From: Ophelia neglecta | Taxonomy: Eukaryota | Direction: 5' to 3' | Assembly (NCBI GenBank): GCA_965285935.1 | Contig: OZ260664.1 | Location: forward strand, 25,420,001-25,484,000 | Length of the DNA stretch: 64,000 nt | In this document: piece after piece, positions 54,901 to 60,900 of the stretch | Position numbering within the stretch: position 1 is the first letter of the stretch | Layout of the letters: the number at the start of each line of letters is the position of its first letter | Position numbers: made by a program

Positions 54901-57900
54901 AGAACCGCTTTTCTGCTATAGGCATGGCGGGGCCCTAATTATTAAATTGCACGGTGGCTATGTTTGCAAATGCAATTTTCCACAATTGATCACCATTTTG
55001 CGGAACTGATCACAGTCTTTTAATCTCTTGAACATACATATCAATGGACACTTTTTAGAGAATTTAGCACTGTTTTGAAAGCATTCTCGGTGACCCAAGT
55101 CTCGACTACCATTGAAGTAAGAAAGACTAGGTTGTTTCATCTTAACAGGGCACGCATTGTATTGATATCGGGAAAATAATATAAGAACCCAAAGCATGAG
55201 AGTGTCTATCAGTTGATTATCATAATACACGAAAGGGAGATTTTGTGTCTTTCTGCCTATAACGTGCCCTATAGGAGACAAGTCGGTGGGTGTTGGCAAG
55301 TCGAAGCGGAGAACAGATCGGTAACATAATCAACATCTCTCAGGTAACCTGTGCCTATATATCACGTTTCCATAACCCTGCATTAGGTGAAAGCGGTAGA
55401 CTTATAGATTTCCTTTTACATACGTAGATCTACGTAAACAATACACGAACACTTCCGACAATTGTCTAAATATTTTGACGCAAACAGCTCGATATGCCGT
55501 ACTAAGTTAAGAGATACAAGTAAAGCCAAACAATATTTATCAATAGAAGGTATACACTCAGTTCCTGGAAACGCGATTATTATTTCCGGGATATATAGTA
55601 CAATGCTGACCTTGACATGGCCATATGTTCACAAGTATATCATTCAACATCAGATGCATAATAAAGGTATTCTTATATGTGTACAAATATTACGTTTCAA
55701 CAGCCTGACAGACAGACTATCTTGAACCAAACTCTGGATATAAATAAATGCCTAATTTATGATAATTTTATAAATAAATAAATAAGTGACTTGGCCATGG
55801 ACTAAACGGGTATAAAACTAAACCCTGATCAATGCAATCATATGTATATCTTGTAGTGTAACAATGAATGAAGCCATCGGAAATGGTGGAAAACCATCGA
55901 ATGAAGGCTTTAAGCTTTAGTTTTAATTAGCATTTGTTAAAGTTTGCTTTATTTGTTTTAATGGTGTGTTTTCTACATGAACTGACTCTGTATTTCTATA
56001 ATACAGTGGTGGAAAGACACAAGTGACATCAGTGAGGTGGGAAGATGCCCCCTGTCACGTATGCAAGTCCTGGTCCAGCGTATGCCCTCCCGGGCCTAAC
56101 GGGTCGCGAGAAACACGACCCGCGCAGCCAGCACCCAGTGGCCCCGTCCTACAGCATTGGGGCCCGTCGTTCGAGGCCTAAAGACAAAGAATCAGGCCCG
56201 GGGCCTAAGTACAACCCCGATCTGAAGACCTACCATGACGGCCGAACTGTTACAATAAAGGGGAGGCCAACTGATTTCCACAGATCCCTTGATAACCTAC
56301 CAGGCCCAGGGGCTTATTCCCCAGAGAGGCTCGGACCGTCTGCCGAGCAGACGGCTCCTGCTTACACGTTTGGTTCGCGCGCTAAGCACAATAATATTAT
56401 TGTTAGTCCAGGCCCTGGGGCGTATTCGCCTGAACACTCCGGACCCAACGGCACAAAAGTAGCTCCTGCTTGGAGCCTTGGCATTCGGCATATCGAACGG
56501 CAAACAGAGGAGCTTCCCGGTCCGTCGGACTACTCACCCCGAGACGGAAGTAACAGGCACGGGTTTTCGACCGGCCCTTCATTCTCTCTTTCCGGACGGC
56601 ACCAAGTTTACGAGGAAGATGGTTCCCCGGGTCCTGGCGCTTACCACCACGGGGGCACCGACTCCGGGTATCATCCCAGCTGGAGCTTCGGAGGCAGGCA
56701 CACTGAAAGGGGGAAAGATGCTAGCCCGGGCCCGGGGGCTTACAGCGTAAAACTTTCCCCCGACGGTCCATCGTTTAGTATGGCGCAAAGACACTCTAAA
56801 GAGGAGCACGATCGAACTCCAGGTCCTGCTGACTACTCGCCCGACAGAAATATGTTTAGATCAGGACGGAAAGAGGGGCCAAAAGTCACAATTAAAGGGA
56901 GAACAAGAGACCTATCTAAGGATGAGTCGCCAGGACCAGGAGCCTATTCTATCGACTCTCTAGGGCCAACAGCCAAGCAGGGTGCACCCGCCTACAGCTT
57001 TGGAACGCGGTCGAACAAACGAGCGCCTGAAAGAATGCCGGGTCCGGGTCAATATTCTCCTGAAACATCCGGCCCGAGTGCTTCCAAGAGTTCACCAGCT
57101 TTCAGCCTGCGAGGGAGAGACGAGAAACCACGATCATCTGATGACTTACCGGGTCCCTCGGACTACTACCCTATGAGTGGTTTGACTTACCGGGGCGGAG
57201 GACGCGGCCCTAGGTACTCCCTAGGCGACAGACACAGTAGCTCGGGGAAAGATGACTCCCCGGGACCCGGAGCTTACTCCGCCTCGCAAGCAGCTCAAGC
57301 CACCAAAAAAAGAACGCCAGCCTGGAGCTTTGGAGGAAGGAACTCTTCAAATGGCTTTATGGAGAGTTCGCCAGGCCCCGGTGCGTATTTGCCAAGTATT
57401 TCGATGAAAAAAGGCCCTGCGTTCAGCATTGGTTCTCGGCCCAGGGGTCATGAGGATGACCCCCTCCCGGGCCCGGGTCAGTACGCTGTGTCCAATAAAG
57501 GCCGAGAGAATGGACCTTCGTACTCGTTCGGTGGGCGACCGTATGCGACGGGACCACAGGCCTATACGCCAGGCCCCGCGGCCTACTTGCCTCGAGAAGA
57601 CTGGGCTGGACCCGCCCCTAGCCTGGGTGGGAGACTGGGAGAAAAACCGGTAAAAACCGATACACCAGGCAAGTAACGTTATAGACTTATAGCGTAAGAA
57701 ACAGAAAATGAATTGTATACAAGTATACATAACCACTAATGTTATTAGCTTATATACATAGGCCTTCATTCTTATGATTTGTTCGAAGATATTATCTATT
57801 GCTTAAGCAGCAGGTACATGTGTAGCGGCACTTTTAGACGGCACTATATTTGAAGTACAGAATGACGTAGAATTTGGCCAAAACTATAATGTTCCGTCGT

Positions 57901-60900
57901 TCCTCGGCCACGGGGTCATATCCGTTGGTGTATGTATGCCCATGAACGGGGAAAATGATTGTTTATGATTTCCTCAATGACACGTACTATTTGCTGATAC
58001 ACGCACATAATTTGTGTAATTTCGGGTCTTTCTTTTAGGTCCAAACGCATATTTAGTGAACCATTCAGCCATCACAAAAGACAAGGCTCCCAGCTACTCC
58101 TTCGGCGGGAGATTGAAGGTTGTTAATGATTACAATGAAGTGAGTATAAACTTGTACTACTGTGATACCCGTTGATACTCGTCAAAGCCATTTGATTAAA
58201 TGTTAGGAACAAAATGTAATGATCACTGAGTATACATGAAGTGGAAGAGAGTTTGTCCTAATGTTTCTGTTGCTTACGTTCAAGCAATAGTTTGTTTCTG
58301 GGTTTTTTTTCCATTCGGCTTACGCAATGTGCAATGAATGGCAAGATGTTTTTAAAGGTCTGGAATTTTCGGAAGAATTAAATGAGCAGCGCCCTTTACA
58401 TAGCTGAGAGCTCGGGGTAGGCTCTTTTTTCCATCACATAAATAGCAAGCAGGTTTGAAACATTTTTTCTGGTTTACTAACCAGATTACTCGTGTTTTTG
58501 TGTGTGTGAAGTATATCTTATGTCCCCATTACAGGCCTATTCGGTGTAAAAGTTTAACAGACTGGTAGACCTGCTAGACTGGCAAATACAAGTATTTACT
58601 AGACTCTTTCTGTACAACAGTCCTGCATAAGTTTCAAATCATCTGGATTTAATAGCTTTTAACGATACCAATGACCCCCCGCCCAAATAAAAAACAACTA
58701 CACTCGGAAGGCTGGATGTTTGTATTCGCAAAAAAGGGCATAGAACAATCCGAAGGAAATCGATATTCGATTCATGCTACTGAAGTATGTCAAATTTAAA
58801 TGCATTCACTGTGATATCAAGCGTAGAGCCCCCGAGGCCGGCCAAGCATCGTGTAGTGAAGCTCGTACAACAGTATGTTTGTATGGAATATATAAAATAA
58901 CCCTGTATGGCAGAACATGTATGGGCATGTATACTATGAGGTTTTCAACTGAGTCCGGTTCCCTAATAATTGTTCCGGACTGGGGAACTGAGCACAAAGG
59001 GTAAACGTTGCCACGATGTGACCTTGGGCGCTCTTGAAGGAGCATGTACTCGTAAGCTTTGGCTGGTTAAGCTTTACATTTTATTATATTATATCTGTTG
59101 GTACAAATAATCCAGATATCTATAACCAGAGTTCGCACTGACGCCGTATTTACGCAACTTGGCAACTTGTCATAATTTGTACGCAAAAAAATGGAGCGCC
59201 GATGCTTTAACATAAGCGCTGCTTTTTCGCGGACGTTTCAGTGACTGGCAAAATTCATAATTCAAAATTCGGTCATTTGTACAAGATGTGCTGAGTCACA
59301 TGATCACATCATACAAATCTCGCTTCCAATGTTAGCAGATGTGAGTTTCCGGCCACCATTGTTCGTCACTCTGTTCAATTATTTTCTTACCACACAGAAA
59401 TTCGGCTACACCGTCACCCTACATATGATTGCTATTGGGAAAATAGATTTAGTACAATATACAAATTAAAGACCATGTACTCGGAAATTTTCCCACGTGT
59501 AAGCAAATTTCAAATCATGTTGCCTACAAGCAAGCAAGCTGATAATACCCTGGCACCAACCCTGTATAAACCTCGAGCTGTTAATGTTTTTTGTAGCTAT
59601 CTCTCGATCCAATGCCTTGTTTTCATCATACTGTTTCATGTAAAAGTTCCAGGATCCTTTTTGAAGTTCCTATATTTACTCGTCCTTTTAGAGTCCCGGT
59701 CCTGGTTATTATCACTCTGGTTCTGTCGACAAAGTGCTAAAGAAATCTCCGGCTTACAGTTTCGGTGGGCGAGCAGCTCACATGCCCGAGGAAAGTAGTC
59801 CTGGGCCTGGCCAATACTACACTCCTGATAAGGTACAAGTTTTATTATAGGTAGCTTTGTATTGGTAAAAATAGCTTTAGACTTTTTGTGTTAATGTCGA
59901 GGGAAGGCCTCATAGAGGCATAGAGGCAAATCAACGTACCATAACATATCAAAAAGGAAACGGCACGTTCCAGTCAGCAGGTCCCGTTTTGTCGCGTTCT
60001 TACTACGTAGTAACCACGTTCTTACTATGTTCTACTGCGTTCTTGTCGCGTTGTTGCCACATTATTATAAGTTGCAGTACACGTTGTTGGGGTAAAAGGC
60101 AAATTCGTCAAATATAAGTAAATTTAATAATTATAAATGCATAGCCTTTCTACCAAAACAAAAGCTTCGTCGATAATAAGCGTGTTTCCAAACTGGTTCA
60201 AACTTCATTTGACCTACACCATTTCGACGAAAACTGGTGACAGAGAAATTCCAAATAATAAGGGGGGATGGTTGGATTCGAGCAGAGGGAAGCGGAAGTG
60301 GGTTTCTGTGAAAATGTCTCTAAGAAGTTTATTTTGAGGATGCTTTAATACTCGGTTACATCACCTAACCCATATTTTCTGACAGGCCATTTATGGTGTC
60401 TAATATACAATGTGGTTAAAAACCAGGTGAATGTCACTATTATTATAACAGCAAGTGACCAGATAGTGTCATCTATTCCTGTACAGAGCAGTCTTCGAGG
60501 CGGACAGTCGTTTGGGGTGAGGTATTCAGACAAGACGTACACGCTGGGCACCCCGGTTCTTTGAGCGAATGGATAACAAATCGAGACTACCGGCGAAATA
60601 GTTCTCACCTTGCTATGCCAAGAAGTATAGAACCATTTTGATAAGATTCGGTATTTGCAAACGATAACAATCTAAGGCTGACATTATGTTACTACTTATC
60701 TAACCTGTCTATATATCTTAAATAATATCCATATATAGATATATCTTAGTTTATATGTGAAAATAATCACTTTTTATCTTAAAATTAAGTTTTATATTAT
60801 GCCATCAGGTACATGTAACGAAGGCTACTGAGGCTGTCAATAAAAGGCAAAATAAACAATGAAATTAATACAACACTGTTTTGGTGGGTACGAATGTAAT

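What the first reader, a model, noticed from the sequence alone, without database searches (positions are those of the whole stretch)
56045..60564. ODF3 paralog tripled from about 6 to 18 PGP repeats, with a duplicated six-repeat module
Seen: the intron phases and 141-nt exon 3 match the neighbouring 251-aa ODF3 gene, but coding exon 1 grew from 397 to 1624 nt. Repeats 2-7 match repeats 8-13 one-to-one (..VTIKGR; ..LGP.A..APAY[TS]FG.R; YSPE.SGP; LPGPSDY; ..WSFGGR; ..GP.FS). Known: PGP-repeat proteins (CIMAP/STPG family) lie along the outer surface of axonemal doublet microtubules, which have 48/96-nm periodicity. Inference: if one repeat spans one 8-nm tubulin dimer, six repeats equal 48 nm, so expansion in sixes would preserve register and give a longer filament or ruler-like protein.
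Basis: partly seen in the sequence, partly recalled or inferred. Interest (0 to 1): 0.65.

Follow-up and report, generated by a model that had tools for sequence, protein, structure and literature searches.

The report
Eighteen-repeat ODF3 paralogue beside ordinary ODF3
An invertebrate genome carries, next to its normal six-repeat ODF3 (cilium and sperm-tail microtubule-binding) gene, an intact sister gene with eighteen repeats built from a duplicated six-repeat block, so it is probably a three-times-longer strip along ciliary microtubules.

Summary
On the + strand, 56045-60564 is an intact four-coding-exon gene (1624, 101, 141 and 78 nt; 647 codons). Its intron phases (1, 0, 0) and its 141-nt exon 3 match the 251-aa ODF3/CIMAP1 gene 6.7 kb upstream. 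It has 18 P-G-P..Y units against six. Units 2-7 and 8-13 are an old tandem duplicate: 49% amino-acid identity, and their one-to-one pairing is the best of 720 possible pairings.

The intron-1 donor is GC, not GT.

The window is from a spiralian invertebrate, not human.

The "one unit = 8 nm" reading is already in print for this protein superfamily, and 12-motif ODF3-like proteins were proposed there to span 96 nm. So 18 units giving 144 nm (3 x 48 nm) is an extension of a known idea, untested for this protein.

"Growth in sixes" is partly supported:
- Four collinear unnamed relatives have 12, 18, 18 and 21 units, so they differ in steps of three or six. The 18s and 21 are inferred from exon-1 reading frames.
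- A six-unit super-repeat is over-represented in my query-biased sample of PG-repeat proteins.
- A fish relative uses four-unit blocks, and arthropod relatives have about 10, 14 and 20 units.

Verdict: a new variant of a known family, of moderate interest.

The parts
56045..57668 (+). Coding exon 1 of the long ODF3 paralogue (1624 nt, phase-1 end). It holds units 1-15 and the 'TPG' of unit 16. GC content is 0.578 against 0.37-0.39 in its introns.
   Evidence: Pfam SHIPPO-rpt PF07004 E=4.1e-56, 9 stretches
56192..56812 (+). Module A: units 2-7 (207 aa)
56813..57460 (+). Module B: units 8-13 (216 aa). It is an old tandem copy of module A: 101 of 205 aligned residues are identical.
57669..58038 (+). 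Intron 1 (370 nt) with a GC donor (CAG|GCAAGT) and an AG acceptor after a pyrimidine run
58039..58139 (+). Coding exon 2 (101 nt): the rest of unit 16, counterpart of the neighbour's unit 4
   Evidence: SHIPPO-rpt E=0.00078, 20.9 bits against a cut-off of 20
59692..59832 (+). Coding exon 3 (141 nt, the same length as the neighbour's exon 3): unit 17 and the start of unit 18
   Evidence: SHIPPO-rpt E=2.5e-08
60487..60564 (+). Coding exon 4 (25 codons plus TGA): the end of unit 18
   Evidence: no Pfam match on its own; weak likeness to the neighbour's exon 4 (score 16)
47142..49378 (+). Neighbouring canonical ODF3/CIMAP1 gene, 251 aa, six units. Exons: 47142-47538, 47728-47852, 48068-48208, 49286-49378.
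   Evidence: 55-70% identity to ODF3/CIMAP1A-like proteins of 248-284 aa; PDB relatives named ODF3/CIMAP1A/B/C

Best explanation
The region encodes an intact long paralogue of the neighbouring ODF3/CIMAP1 gene in a spiralian invertebrate.

Shown:
- Both ends are collinear with ordinary ODF3. Unit 1 matches ODF3 unit 1, and units 16, 17 and 18 match ODF3 units 4, 5 and 6.
- Twelve extra units sit inside exon 1.
- The extra units derive from ODF3 unit-2-like and unit-3-like units. Unit-2-like units recur at positions 2, 5, 8 and 11.
- A six-unit module (units 2-7) was duplicated in tandem long ago (units 8-13).
- The same layout occurs in a few unnamed relatives, so it is a conserved gene type and not a recent accident.

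Inferred from the family: each P-G-P-x-x-Y motif docks on one tubulin dimer in an outer cleft between protofilaments of ciliary or sperm doublet microtubules, and the 31-43-residue spacers bridge 8 nm. One molecule would then cover about 18 dimers, or 144 nm. That is three 48-nm periods, or six 24-nm periods.

Inferred more weakly: changing length by whole three- or six-unit blocks keeps each unit type on its own kind of lattice position.
For: Gene and family:
- The gene model is intact and shares intron phases and the 141-nt exon with the neighbour.
- SHIPPO-rpt PF07004 matches exons 1, 2 and 3.
- All 6 PDB sequences matched are ODF3/CIMAP1A/B/C chains of entries 8snb, 8otz, 8iyj, 9cpb, 9fqr and 9v10.

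Mapping of units on the neighbour:
- X1-N1 scores 98.
- X2, X5, X8 and X11 are best with N2.
- X3 and X9 score 88 with N3.
- X16 is best with N4, X17 with N5, X18 with N6.

Unit tree: X2+X8 94/89, X5+X11 85/69, X1+N1 95/89.

Module duplication: 1 of 720 pairings reaches the observed score, and the module alignment gives 49% identity.

Relatives:
- MAFFT alignment A1 puts this exon 1, P0007 and P0256 unit on unit, with the PGP columns invariant. P0252 carries one extra three-unit block. P0001 ends after 12 units.
- Their self-similarity peaks at offsets 6 and 3.
- On a tree of units 1-3, this protein, P0001, P0007, P0256 and P0252 group together (SH-aLRT 89), apart from 22 canonical ODF3 rows.

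Mechanism, from print:
- The PG motif binds microtubules, about 40-residue spacers correspond to 8 nm, and 12 motifs were proposed to span 96 nm (PMC10105768, passages).
- CIMAPs sit on the external doublet surface (PMC11779644, passages).

Six-unit super-repeat in the wider superfamily:
- Among 85 regular arrays with 14 or more anchors, 28 have best offset 6, against 9.1 expected from shuffled unit order.
- Among 108 arrays with 11-13 anchors, 40 have best offset 6, against 20.4 expected.
Against: - There is no transcript, proteome or localisation evidence for this gene. Splicing of the GC donor is assumed.
- The unit counts 18, 18 and 21 for P0007, P0256 and P0252 assume that their unseen 3' exons add two units, as here. 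I could not fetch their contigs.
- P0031 also looks like a 15-unit exon-1 frame, but it falls elsewhere on the tree on a long branch.
- Unit-to-unit best matches between this protein and its relatives are not cleanly collinear, because units of one type cross-match.
- The clade of long forms is not strongly supported, and the tool warns that long branches meet.
- Counts are not always multiples of three or six. The fish P0002 uses four-unit blocks. Arthropod proteins have about 10, 10, 14 and 20 units. Strong super-repeats of 5, 2, 4, 3, 1 and 9 units also occur: 11 of 30 strong cases.
- The super-repeat survey is biased. Every protein in it was recruited by likeness to this gene, its neighbour or their profile, and the proteins are not independent lineages.
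- 144 nm does not fit the 96 nm axonemal repeat.
- Units here average about 36 residues, against about 42 in the six-unit protein.
Confidence: 0.6

Rival explanations
1. Neutral repeat growth. The protein binds microtubules through its PG units, but the units are interchangeable and their number carries no register. On this view the six-unit module is only the trace of one chance unequal crossover.
For: - Anchor counts among 214 PG-repeat proteins over 290 aa range from 7 to 69.
- Arthropod ODF3-like proteins have about 10, 10, 14 and 20 units. The wasp protein grew by single units: its best offset is 1.
- The fish protein P0002 grew by four-unit blocks.
- Super-repeats of 5, 2, 4, 3, 1 and 9 units occur.
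Against: - The duplicate modules are old, with synonymous positions near random (37 of 101). Yet they keep type-for-type order.
- Relatives keep the same layout and differ by whole three- or six-unit blocks.
- Offset 6 is about three times more frequent than under shuffled unit order.
Confidence: 0.25
2. Historical contingency. Six-unit super-repeats exist because the ancestral protein had six units and long forms arose by fusing whole copies, not because of any 48-nm constraint.
For: - The canonical protein has six units and a tightly kept length: 248-284 aa in the 120 listed hits.
- A large class of 11-13-anchor proteins shows offset 6 (40 of 108), as a doubled six-unit protein would.
Against: - In this gene the module is not a copy of the whole protein. 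Its units resemble ODF3 units 2 and 3 only, in the order N2, N3, N3, N2, N3, N3. They lie inside exon 1, between the counterparts of units 3 and 4.
- A three-unit sub-period is present in the relatives.
Confidence: 0.1
3. Truncated or decaying gene. The GC donor is a splice-site mutation, and the product ends at the in-frame stop two codons into the intron ('...TPGK'). The protein would then be 543 aa with 15 complete units, or the gene is on its way to becoming a pseudogene.
For: - The donor is GC, while the neighbour has GT.
- The read-through tails of P0007, P0256 and P0252 ('PGK...') fit a G|GTAAG donor at the same place (my reading).
Against: - The rest of the donor is consensus (CAG|GCAAGT). 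Such sites are used by GC-AG introns (general knowledge, not tested here).
- Exons 2-4 are open, keep the expected phases and still hold unit motifs: SHIPPO-rpt matches exons 2 and 3.
- The 1.6-kb exon 1 has no stop in a genome region of about 37% GC.
Confidence: 0.08
4. A different site of action. The protein decorates other microtubules (central pair, tip singlets, cytoplasmic or spermatid arrays), or weaves partly into the lumen, rather than lying along an outer doublet cleft.
For: - STPG1A and STPG2 bind outside but also weave into the lumen (PMC10105768).
- A PG-rich protein was noted among proteins absent from a ciliary-tip mutant, though not significantly (PMC10522465, one passage).
Against: The closest solved relatives by sequence are all ODF3/CIMAP1 chains of sperm doublet entries. 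CIMAPs are described as external.
Confidence: 0.12

Closest known systems
Canonical ODF3 / CIMAP1A (the neighbouring gene; solved in sperm doublet entries 8snb, 8otz, 8iyj, 9cpb, 9fqr, 9v10)
   Same: - SHIPPO/PG repeats.
- The ODF3-type first unit: 41% identity over 122 residues to the neighbour's exon 1.
- The same four coding exons, the same phases and the same 141-nt exon 3.
- Collinear first and last units.
   Different: - 18 units and 647 codons, against 6 units and 251 aa.
- The units are shorter (31-43 residues, about 36 on average).
- The C-terminal end is only weakly alike.
- The intron-1 donor is GC.
Tetrahymena ODF3L proteins (12 P-G-P-G-x-Y motifs, proposed to span 96 nm) and STPG1A (PMC10105768, passages)
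   Same: The same motif and spacer logic. They are long forms whose motif number was read as a length in 8-nm steps.
   Different: - 18 motifs rather than 12, so 144 nm and not a multiple of 96 nm.
- An animal gene that sits beside a six-unit copy.
- Orthology was not tested.
- The ODF3L sequences are in that paper's supplement, which I could not see.
Unnamed database proteins P0007, P0256, P0252 and P0001
   Same: - ODF3-type first unit.
- Unit-on-unit alignment.
- Self-similarity peaks at offsets 6 and 3.
- P0007, P0256 and P0252 end with 'NPGK...', as expected if the reading frame runs into an intron at the same phase-1 position.
   Different: - Only 33-39% identical to this exon 1.
- P0252 has one more three-unit block, and P0001 has 12 units in one frame.
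- Organisms are unknown and the 3' exons unseen.
Lucifuga dentata hypothetical protein LDENG_00239780 (P0002, 704 aa)
   Same: ODF3-type ends and 18 anchors.
   Different: - Built from four nearly identical four-unit blocks: offset 4 scores 165 against about 33 for other offsets. That points to a recent event or an annotation or assembly artefact.
- It groups with a vertebrate-type short protein, not with this gene.
CCDC39/CCDC40 96-nm axonemal ruler (named as a ruler in PMC10105768)
   Same: Only the proposed role: a long protein lying along the doublet whose length sets or reads a period.
   Different: The ruler is a coiled coil. This protein is Pro/Gly-rich and no helical fold was predicted, although that model is low-confidence. 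There is no homology.

Membership tests
ODF3 / CIMAP1 family | Sperm-tail PG-rich repeats (Pfam SHIPPO-rpt PF07004) | tested here: met
   Exon 1 E=4.1e-56 (9 stretches), exon 2 E=0.00078, exon 3 E=2.5e-08. Exon 4 has no match.
ODF3 / CIMAP1 family | ODF3-type first unit (SPGP.Y.LP...G...HD...), collinear with a bona fide ODF3 | tested here: met
   X1 against N1 scores 98, the highest cell of the table. tblastn gives 41% identity over 122 aa. X01+N1 has 95/89 support on the unit tree. The motif as written is my own regular expression.
ODF3 / CIMAP1 family | Shared gene structure with a family member (intron positions and phases) | tested here: met
   Phases are 1, 0, 0 in both genes. The first intron splits the Gly codon of a PG motif in both. 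Exon 3 is 141 nt in both.
ODF3 / CIMAP1 family | ODF3-type C-terminal end (last unit followed by ..FG.[RK]H..Y..PL; motif recalled and seen in the neighbour and in P0002) | tested here: inconclusive
   The exon-3 part of unit 18 is best with N6 (score 27). Exon 4 is best with the neighbour's exon 4 (score 16), but weakly. Exon 4 has no Pfam match.
ODF3 / CIMAP1 family | About 250 aa with six units | tested here: not met
   18 units, 647 codons. All 120 listed relatives of the neighbour are 248-284 aa.
ODF3 / CIMAP1 family | Bound to the outer surface of axonemal doublet microtubules | not testable with these tools
   Known for CIMAPs in mammals (PMC11779644 passages). There are no data for this protein.
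STPG1 / STPG2 | P-G-P-G-x-Y (STPG1A) or P-G-P-x-Y (STPG2) motifs spaced by about 40 residues | tested here: met
   11 units have PGPG.Y, 5 have PGP..Y and 2 have PGP.Y. Spacing is 31-43 residues. This feature is shared with ODF3L proteins and does not separate the families.
STPG1 / STPG2 | Closer to STPG proteins than to ODF3 proteins | tested here: not met
   6 of 6 PDB sequences matched at E<=0.001 are named ODF3 or CIMAP1A/B/C. The first and last units and the gene structure are ODF3-type.
Coiled-coil axonemal rulers (CCDC39/40) | Long alpha-helical coiled coil | tested here: not met
   No Pfam family other than SHIPPO-rpt. The AlphaFold2 model has no helix of 4 or more residues, but its mean pLDDT is 37.5, so this is weak. 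The Pro/Gly-rich sequence can be seen directly.

The most novel reading that the evidence does not exclude
Three- and six-unit super-repeats (24 and 48 nm) are a selected design rule of PG-repeat microtubule proteins. Each unit type addresses one particular dimer position within the doublet's 48-nm pattern, so length can change only by whole blocks. This conserved 18-unit paralogue would then be a 144-nm 'triple-period' strip. It would put a longer period, one that does not fit 96 nm, on the outer surface of spiralian cilia or sperm tails.
Probability: 0.2. Interest if true: 0.65.

Novelty: new variant of a known kind. Interest (0 to 1): 0.45.

Why it matters
PG-repeat proteins are among the few axonemal proteins whose length in nanometres can be read from the sequence, at one motif per tubulin dimer. 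Here a natural series sits within one gene family, with the six-unit and 18-unit members side by side in one genome: 6, 12, 18 and probably 21 units. That series gives a direct test of two questions. Do these strips merely coat microtubules, or do they carry positional information? Do the 24- and 48-nm periods constrain how such genes evolve?

If the six-unit super-repeat holds up in an unbiased survey, it would be sequence-level evidence that the units are not equivalent on the lattice. If it does not hold, this is one more repeat-number variant of a known family.

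Tried and rejected
Tried without a useful result:
- Self-BLASTP of exon 1 printed no off-diagonal alignment under my filter. I used unit-wise global alignments instead.
- Tandem Repeats Finder found nothing in exon 1.
- The AlphaFold2 model of exon 1, built on the 5-row alignment A1, has mean pLDDT 37.5 and pTM 0.13. It gives no usable fold and no verdict on disorder. I ran no fold search on it.
- The protein atlas returned only short SHIPPO-rpt clusters (score 0.95, recognition 1508, below the tool's guide value). 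It gave no lead on the organism or on long forms.
- My strict RFX X-box pattern has no match anywhere in the window. That is no evidence either way on ciliary regulation.
- tblastn of all eight exon peptides found no third ODF3-like copy in the window. Hits elsewhere have E of 0.3 or more.
- A profile search with A1 found no named member of the long form. After P0007 (817 bits) and P0001 (579 bits), scores drop to generic PG-repeat proteins.

Could not be done:
The sources and names of P0252 and P0256 stayed unknown.
- Leung et al. 2023 (Cell, PMC10948200) is not held. I did not look up Zhou et al. 2023.

Literature searches that found nothing:
- PMC9564825, PMC10266980 and preprint 10.1101/2022.09.29.510157 hold no mention of ODF3, CIMAP or PG-rich proteins.
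- I found no paper describing expanded animal ODF3 genes or super-repeats of PG units in searches. Those searches used names and a few phrases only, and supplements were closed.

Rejected readings:
- An assembly artefact is unlikely. The modules are only 52% identical in DNA and lie in one open frame.
- The window is not human. All 31 organism-named rows among the 120 listed hits of the neighbour are molluscs, annelids, a brachiopod, a bryozoan or flatworms (I placed the genera from memory).

Full report
**Observation**

The window has no N. On the + strand a 546-codon frame runs 56036-57676, with its ATG at 56045. From the junction sequences the gene model is:

| Exon | Coordinates | Length |
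|---|---|---|
| e1 | 56045-57668 | 1624 nt |
| e2 | 58039-58139 | 101 nt |
| e3 | 59692-59832 | 141 nt |
| e4 | 60487-60564 | 78 nt with TGA |

The total is 647 codons with intron phases 1, 0, 0.

The first donor is GC in a consensus setting (CAG|GCAAGT). The GT four bases downstream gives a frame that stops inside exon 2.

The neighbour, 6666 bp upstream on the same strand, has exons 47142-47538 (397 nt), 47728-47852 (125), 48068-48208 (141) and 49286-49378 (93). That is 251 aa with the same phases.

I never joined the spliced model. Every search and comparison used single exons. The unit that spans intron 1 was treated as its exon-2 part.

**Repeats**

Exon 1 holds 15 PGP anchors spaced 31-43 residues apart. 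Unit 16 is split by intron 1. Units 17 and 18 begin in exon 3, and unit 18 ends in exon 4. All 18 keep P-G-P-x(1-2)-Y. Pfam SHIPPO-rpt matches exons 1-3.

The one-to-one match of units 2-7 with units 8-13 is real:
- It is the best of all 720 pairings: 455 against a mean of 296.
- Offset 6 has the highest mean score (63.0). 7 of the 12 module units have their best partner at +/-6, and the other five are near ties with units of the same type.
- Non-overlapping six-unit blocks score 349-447 at offset 6, against 231-318 at offsets 7-9.
- The two modules share 101 of 205 aligned residues and 52% of codon bases. Third positions agree at only 37 of 101 identical residues, and no DNA-level tandem repeat is detectable.

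The duplication is therefore ancient and has been maintained.

**Origin of the extra units**

Against the neighbour's units:
- X1 matches N1 (score 98).
- X16, X17 and X18 match N4, N5 and N6.
- X2, X5, X8 and X11 are N2-like.
- X3, X4, X9 and X10 are N3-like (72-88).

The unit tree has few columns and resolves little. It does join X2+X8 (94/89), X5+X11 (85/69) and X1+N1 (95/89), and it puts N2 with X2, X8, X5 and X11.

So the ends are those of ordinary ODF3. Twelve units were added inside exon 1, from unit-2/3-like material, with a three-unit rhythm inside the six-unit module. The module is not a copy of a whole six-unit protein.

**Organism and family**

The neighbour's exon 1 is 55-70% identical to proteins of 248-284 aa. 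All 31 organism-named rows among the 120 listed are molluscs, annelids, a brachiopod, a bryozoan or flatworms (I placed the genera from memory). I take the window for a spiralian invertebrate, not human.

By sequence, the solved structures nearest to both genes are chains named ODF3 or CIMAP1A/B/C in entries 8snb, 8otz, 8iyj, 9cpb, 9fqr and 9v10.

There is no third copy in the window.

**Relatives of the long form**

No database protein is close. The best hits are 41-43% identical.

Among the first 343 proteins collected, 131 have an ODF3-type first unit, and six of those exceed 290 aa:

| Protein | Length | What is seen |
|---|---|---|
| P0001 | 462 aa | 12 units in one frame |
| P0007 | 542 aa | 15 units, ends 'NPGK..' |
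| P0256 | 540 aa | 15 units, ends 'NPGK..' |
| P0031 | 570 aa | 15 units, ends '..VPGT..' |
| P0252 | 646 aa | 18 units, ends 'NPGK..' |
| P0002 | 704 aa | Fish Lucifuga dentata, 18 units |

The 'PGK' tails are what one gets by reading into an intron that starts G|GTAAG inside the Gly codon of a PG motif. That is the position of intron 1 here (my inference). If their 3' exons resemble this gene's, the totals are 18, 18, 18 and 21.

MAFFT aligns this exon 1, P0007 and P0256 unit on unit. P0252 has one extra three-unit block, and P0001 stops after unit 12.

Unit lengths in P0007, P0256 and P0252 follow 37/36/31 again and again. Self-similarity peaks at offsets 6 and 3.

On a tree of units 1-3, this protein, P0001, P0007, P0256 and P0252 group together (SH-aLRT 89, with a long-branch warning), apart from canonical spiralian ODF3. 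P0031 and the fish protein fall elsewhere.

A profile of the five found no named member. The long form thus looks like an old, rarely sampled paralogue family rather than a private novelty of this genome.

**Tests of the "sixes" idea**

For:
- The relatives differ by three or six units.
- In a survey of regular PG arrays, offset 6 is the best self-similarity offset in 28 of 85 arrays with 14 or more anchors, against 9.1 expected from shuffled unit order. Clear cases number 19, against 0.7 expected.
- The same holds in 40 of 108 arrays with 11-13 anchors, against 20.4 expected, with 17 clear cases against 2.35.
- Before dropping the 17 irregular arrays, the figure was 32 of 101.
- One unnamed 1025-aa protein, P0243, repeats the spacing 37/33/32/38/32/31 four times.

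Against:
- The sample was recruited by likeness to this very gene, and its members are not independent.
- Units were called with a regular expression on unverified predicted proteins.
- Clear super-repeats of 5, 2, 4, 3, 1 and 9 units exist: 11 of the 30 clear cases.
- The fish protein is four blocks of four units.
- Arthropod ODF3-like proteins have roughly 10, 10, 14 and 20 units. These are regex counts, plus a first unit that lacks the aromatic residue, plus one for each double-length gap.
- P0252 would have 21 units.

A step of three (24 nm) describes the close relatives better than a step of six.

**What is known**

Kubo et al. 2023 (PMC10105768; I read passages only) report the following:
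- Spacers of about 40 residues act as 8-nm spacers.
- The protein spans the 48-nm repeat.
- Two ODF3-like proteins with 12 motifs probably span 96 nm.

Leung et al. 2025 (PMC11779644; passages and a figure legend) state that CIMAPs bind close to the external doublet surface and that CIMAP1-family proteins occur in all motile cilia they examined.

That length fits 8, 16, 24 and 48 nm periods but not 96 nm.

**Mechanism and verdict**

Shown:
- An intact long ODF3 paralogue.
- The history of its units.
- A conserved layout in a few relatives.

Inferred from the family: it lies in an outer protofilament cleft of ciliary or sperm doublets, one PG motif per dimer, covering about 144 nm.

More weakly inferred: block-wise length change keeps unit types in register with the 24- or 48-nm pattern.

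Untested: expression, splicing at the GC donor, location, and any ruler role.

The AlphaFold2 model was uninformative.

This is a new variant of a known kind, of moderate interest. Its value lies in offering a natural 6/12/18/21 length series for testing whether PG-repeat strips carry positional information.

Noticed in passing
window 57669-57674: Intron 1 of the long gene has a GC donor (CAG|GCAAGT), while the neighbour has GT at the homologous site. An in-frame TAA lies two codons into the intron.
   Followed up: partly
window 26014-30051: An element of about 4 kb is bounded by 79-nt inverted repeats that are 99% complementary (26014-26092 and 29973-30051). It has 22-23-nt subterminal tandem repeats and internal tandem arrays of 123 and about 150 nt at 27.8-28.8 kb. 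It looks like a non-autonomous DNA transposon. The long ORFs here had no Pfam match.
   Followed up: partly
window 19255-20636, minus strand: Two exon-sized frames match Pfam Tcp11 (T-complex protein 11; E=6.6e-33 and 1.3e-16). From recall, that family is linked to sperm, so this would be another sperm-related gene upstream of the ODF3 pair.
   Followed up: no
window 31746-34631, plus strand: One frame has a weak DEP-domain match (E=0.002, below the curated cut-off). A second long exon-like frame at 34233-34631 has no Pfam match.
   Followed up: no
window 4001-20000 versus 24001-64000: The CpG observed/expected ratio is 0.26-0.31 over 4-20 kb and mostly 0.6-0.9 from 24 kb onward, with one low window (0.38) at 32-36 kb. 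This looks like the mosaic methylation pattern of invertebrate genomes (recalled). Both ODF3 genes lie in the CpG-rich part.
   Followed up: no
database protein P0243 (1025 aa, unnamed): It has 30 PG anchors whose spacing repeats 37/33/32/38/32/31 four times. Self-similarity is 127 at offset 6 against 33-54 at the other offsets. This is a very regular six-unit super-repeat in a protein without an ODF3-type first unit.
   Followed up: partly
database proteins with 11-13 anchors (about 430-450 aa): Anchor counts of PG-repeat proteins over 290 aa peak sharply at 12 (56 of 214) and 11 (37 of 214). Many of these also show offset-6 self-similarity. That fits the 12-motif/96-nm class described for Tetrahymena.
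   Followed up: partly
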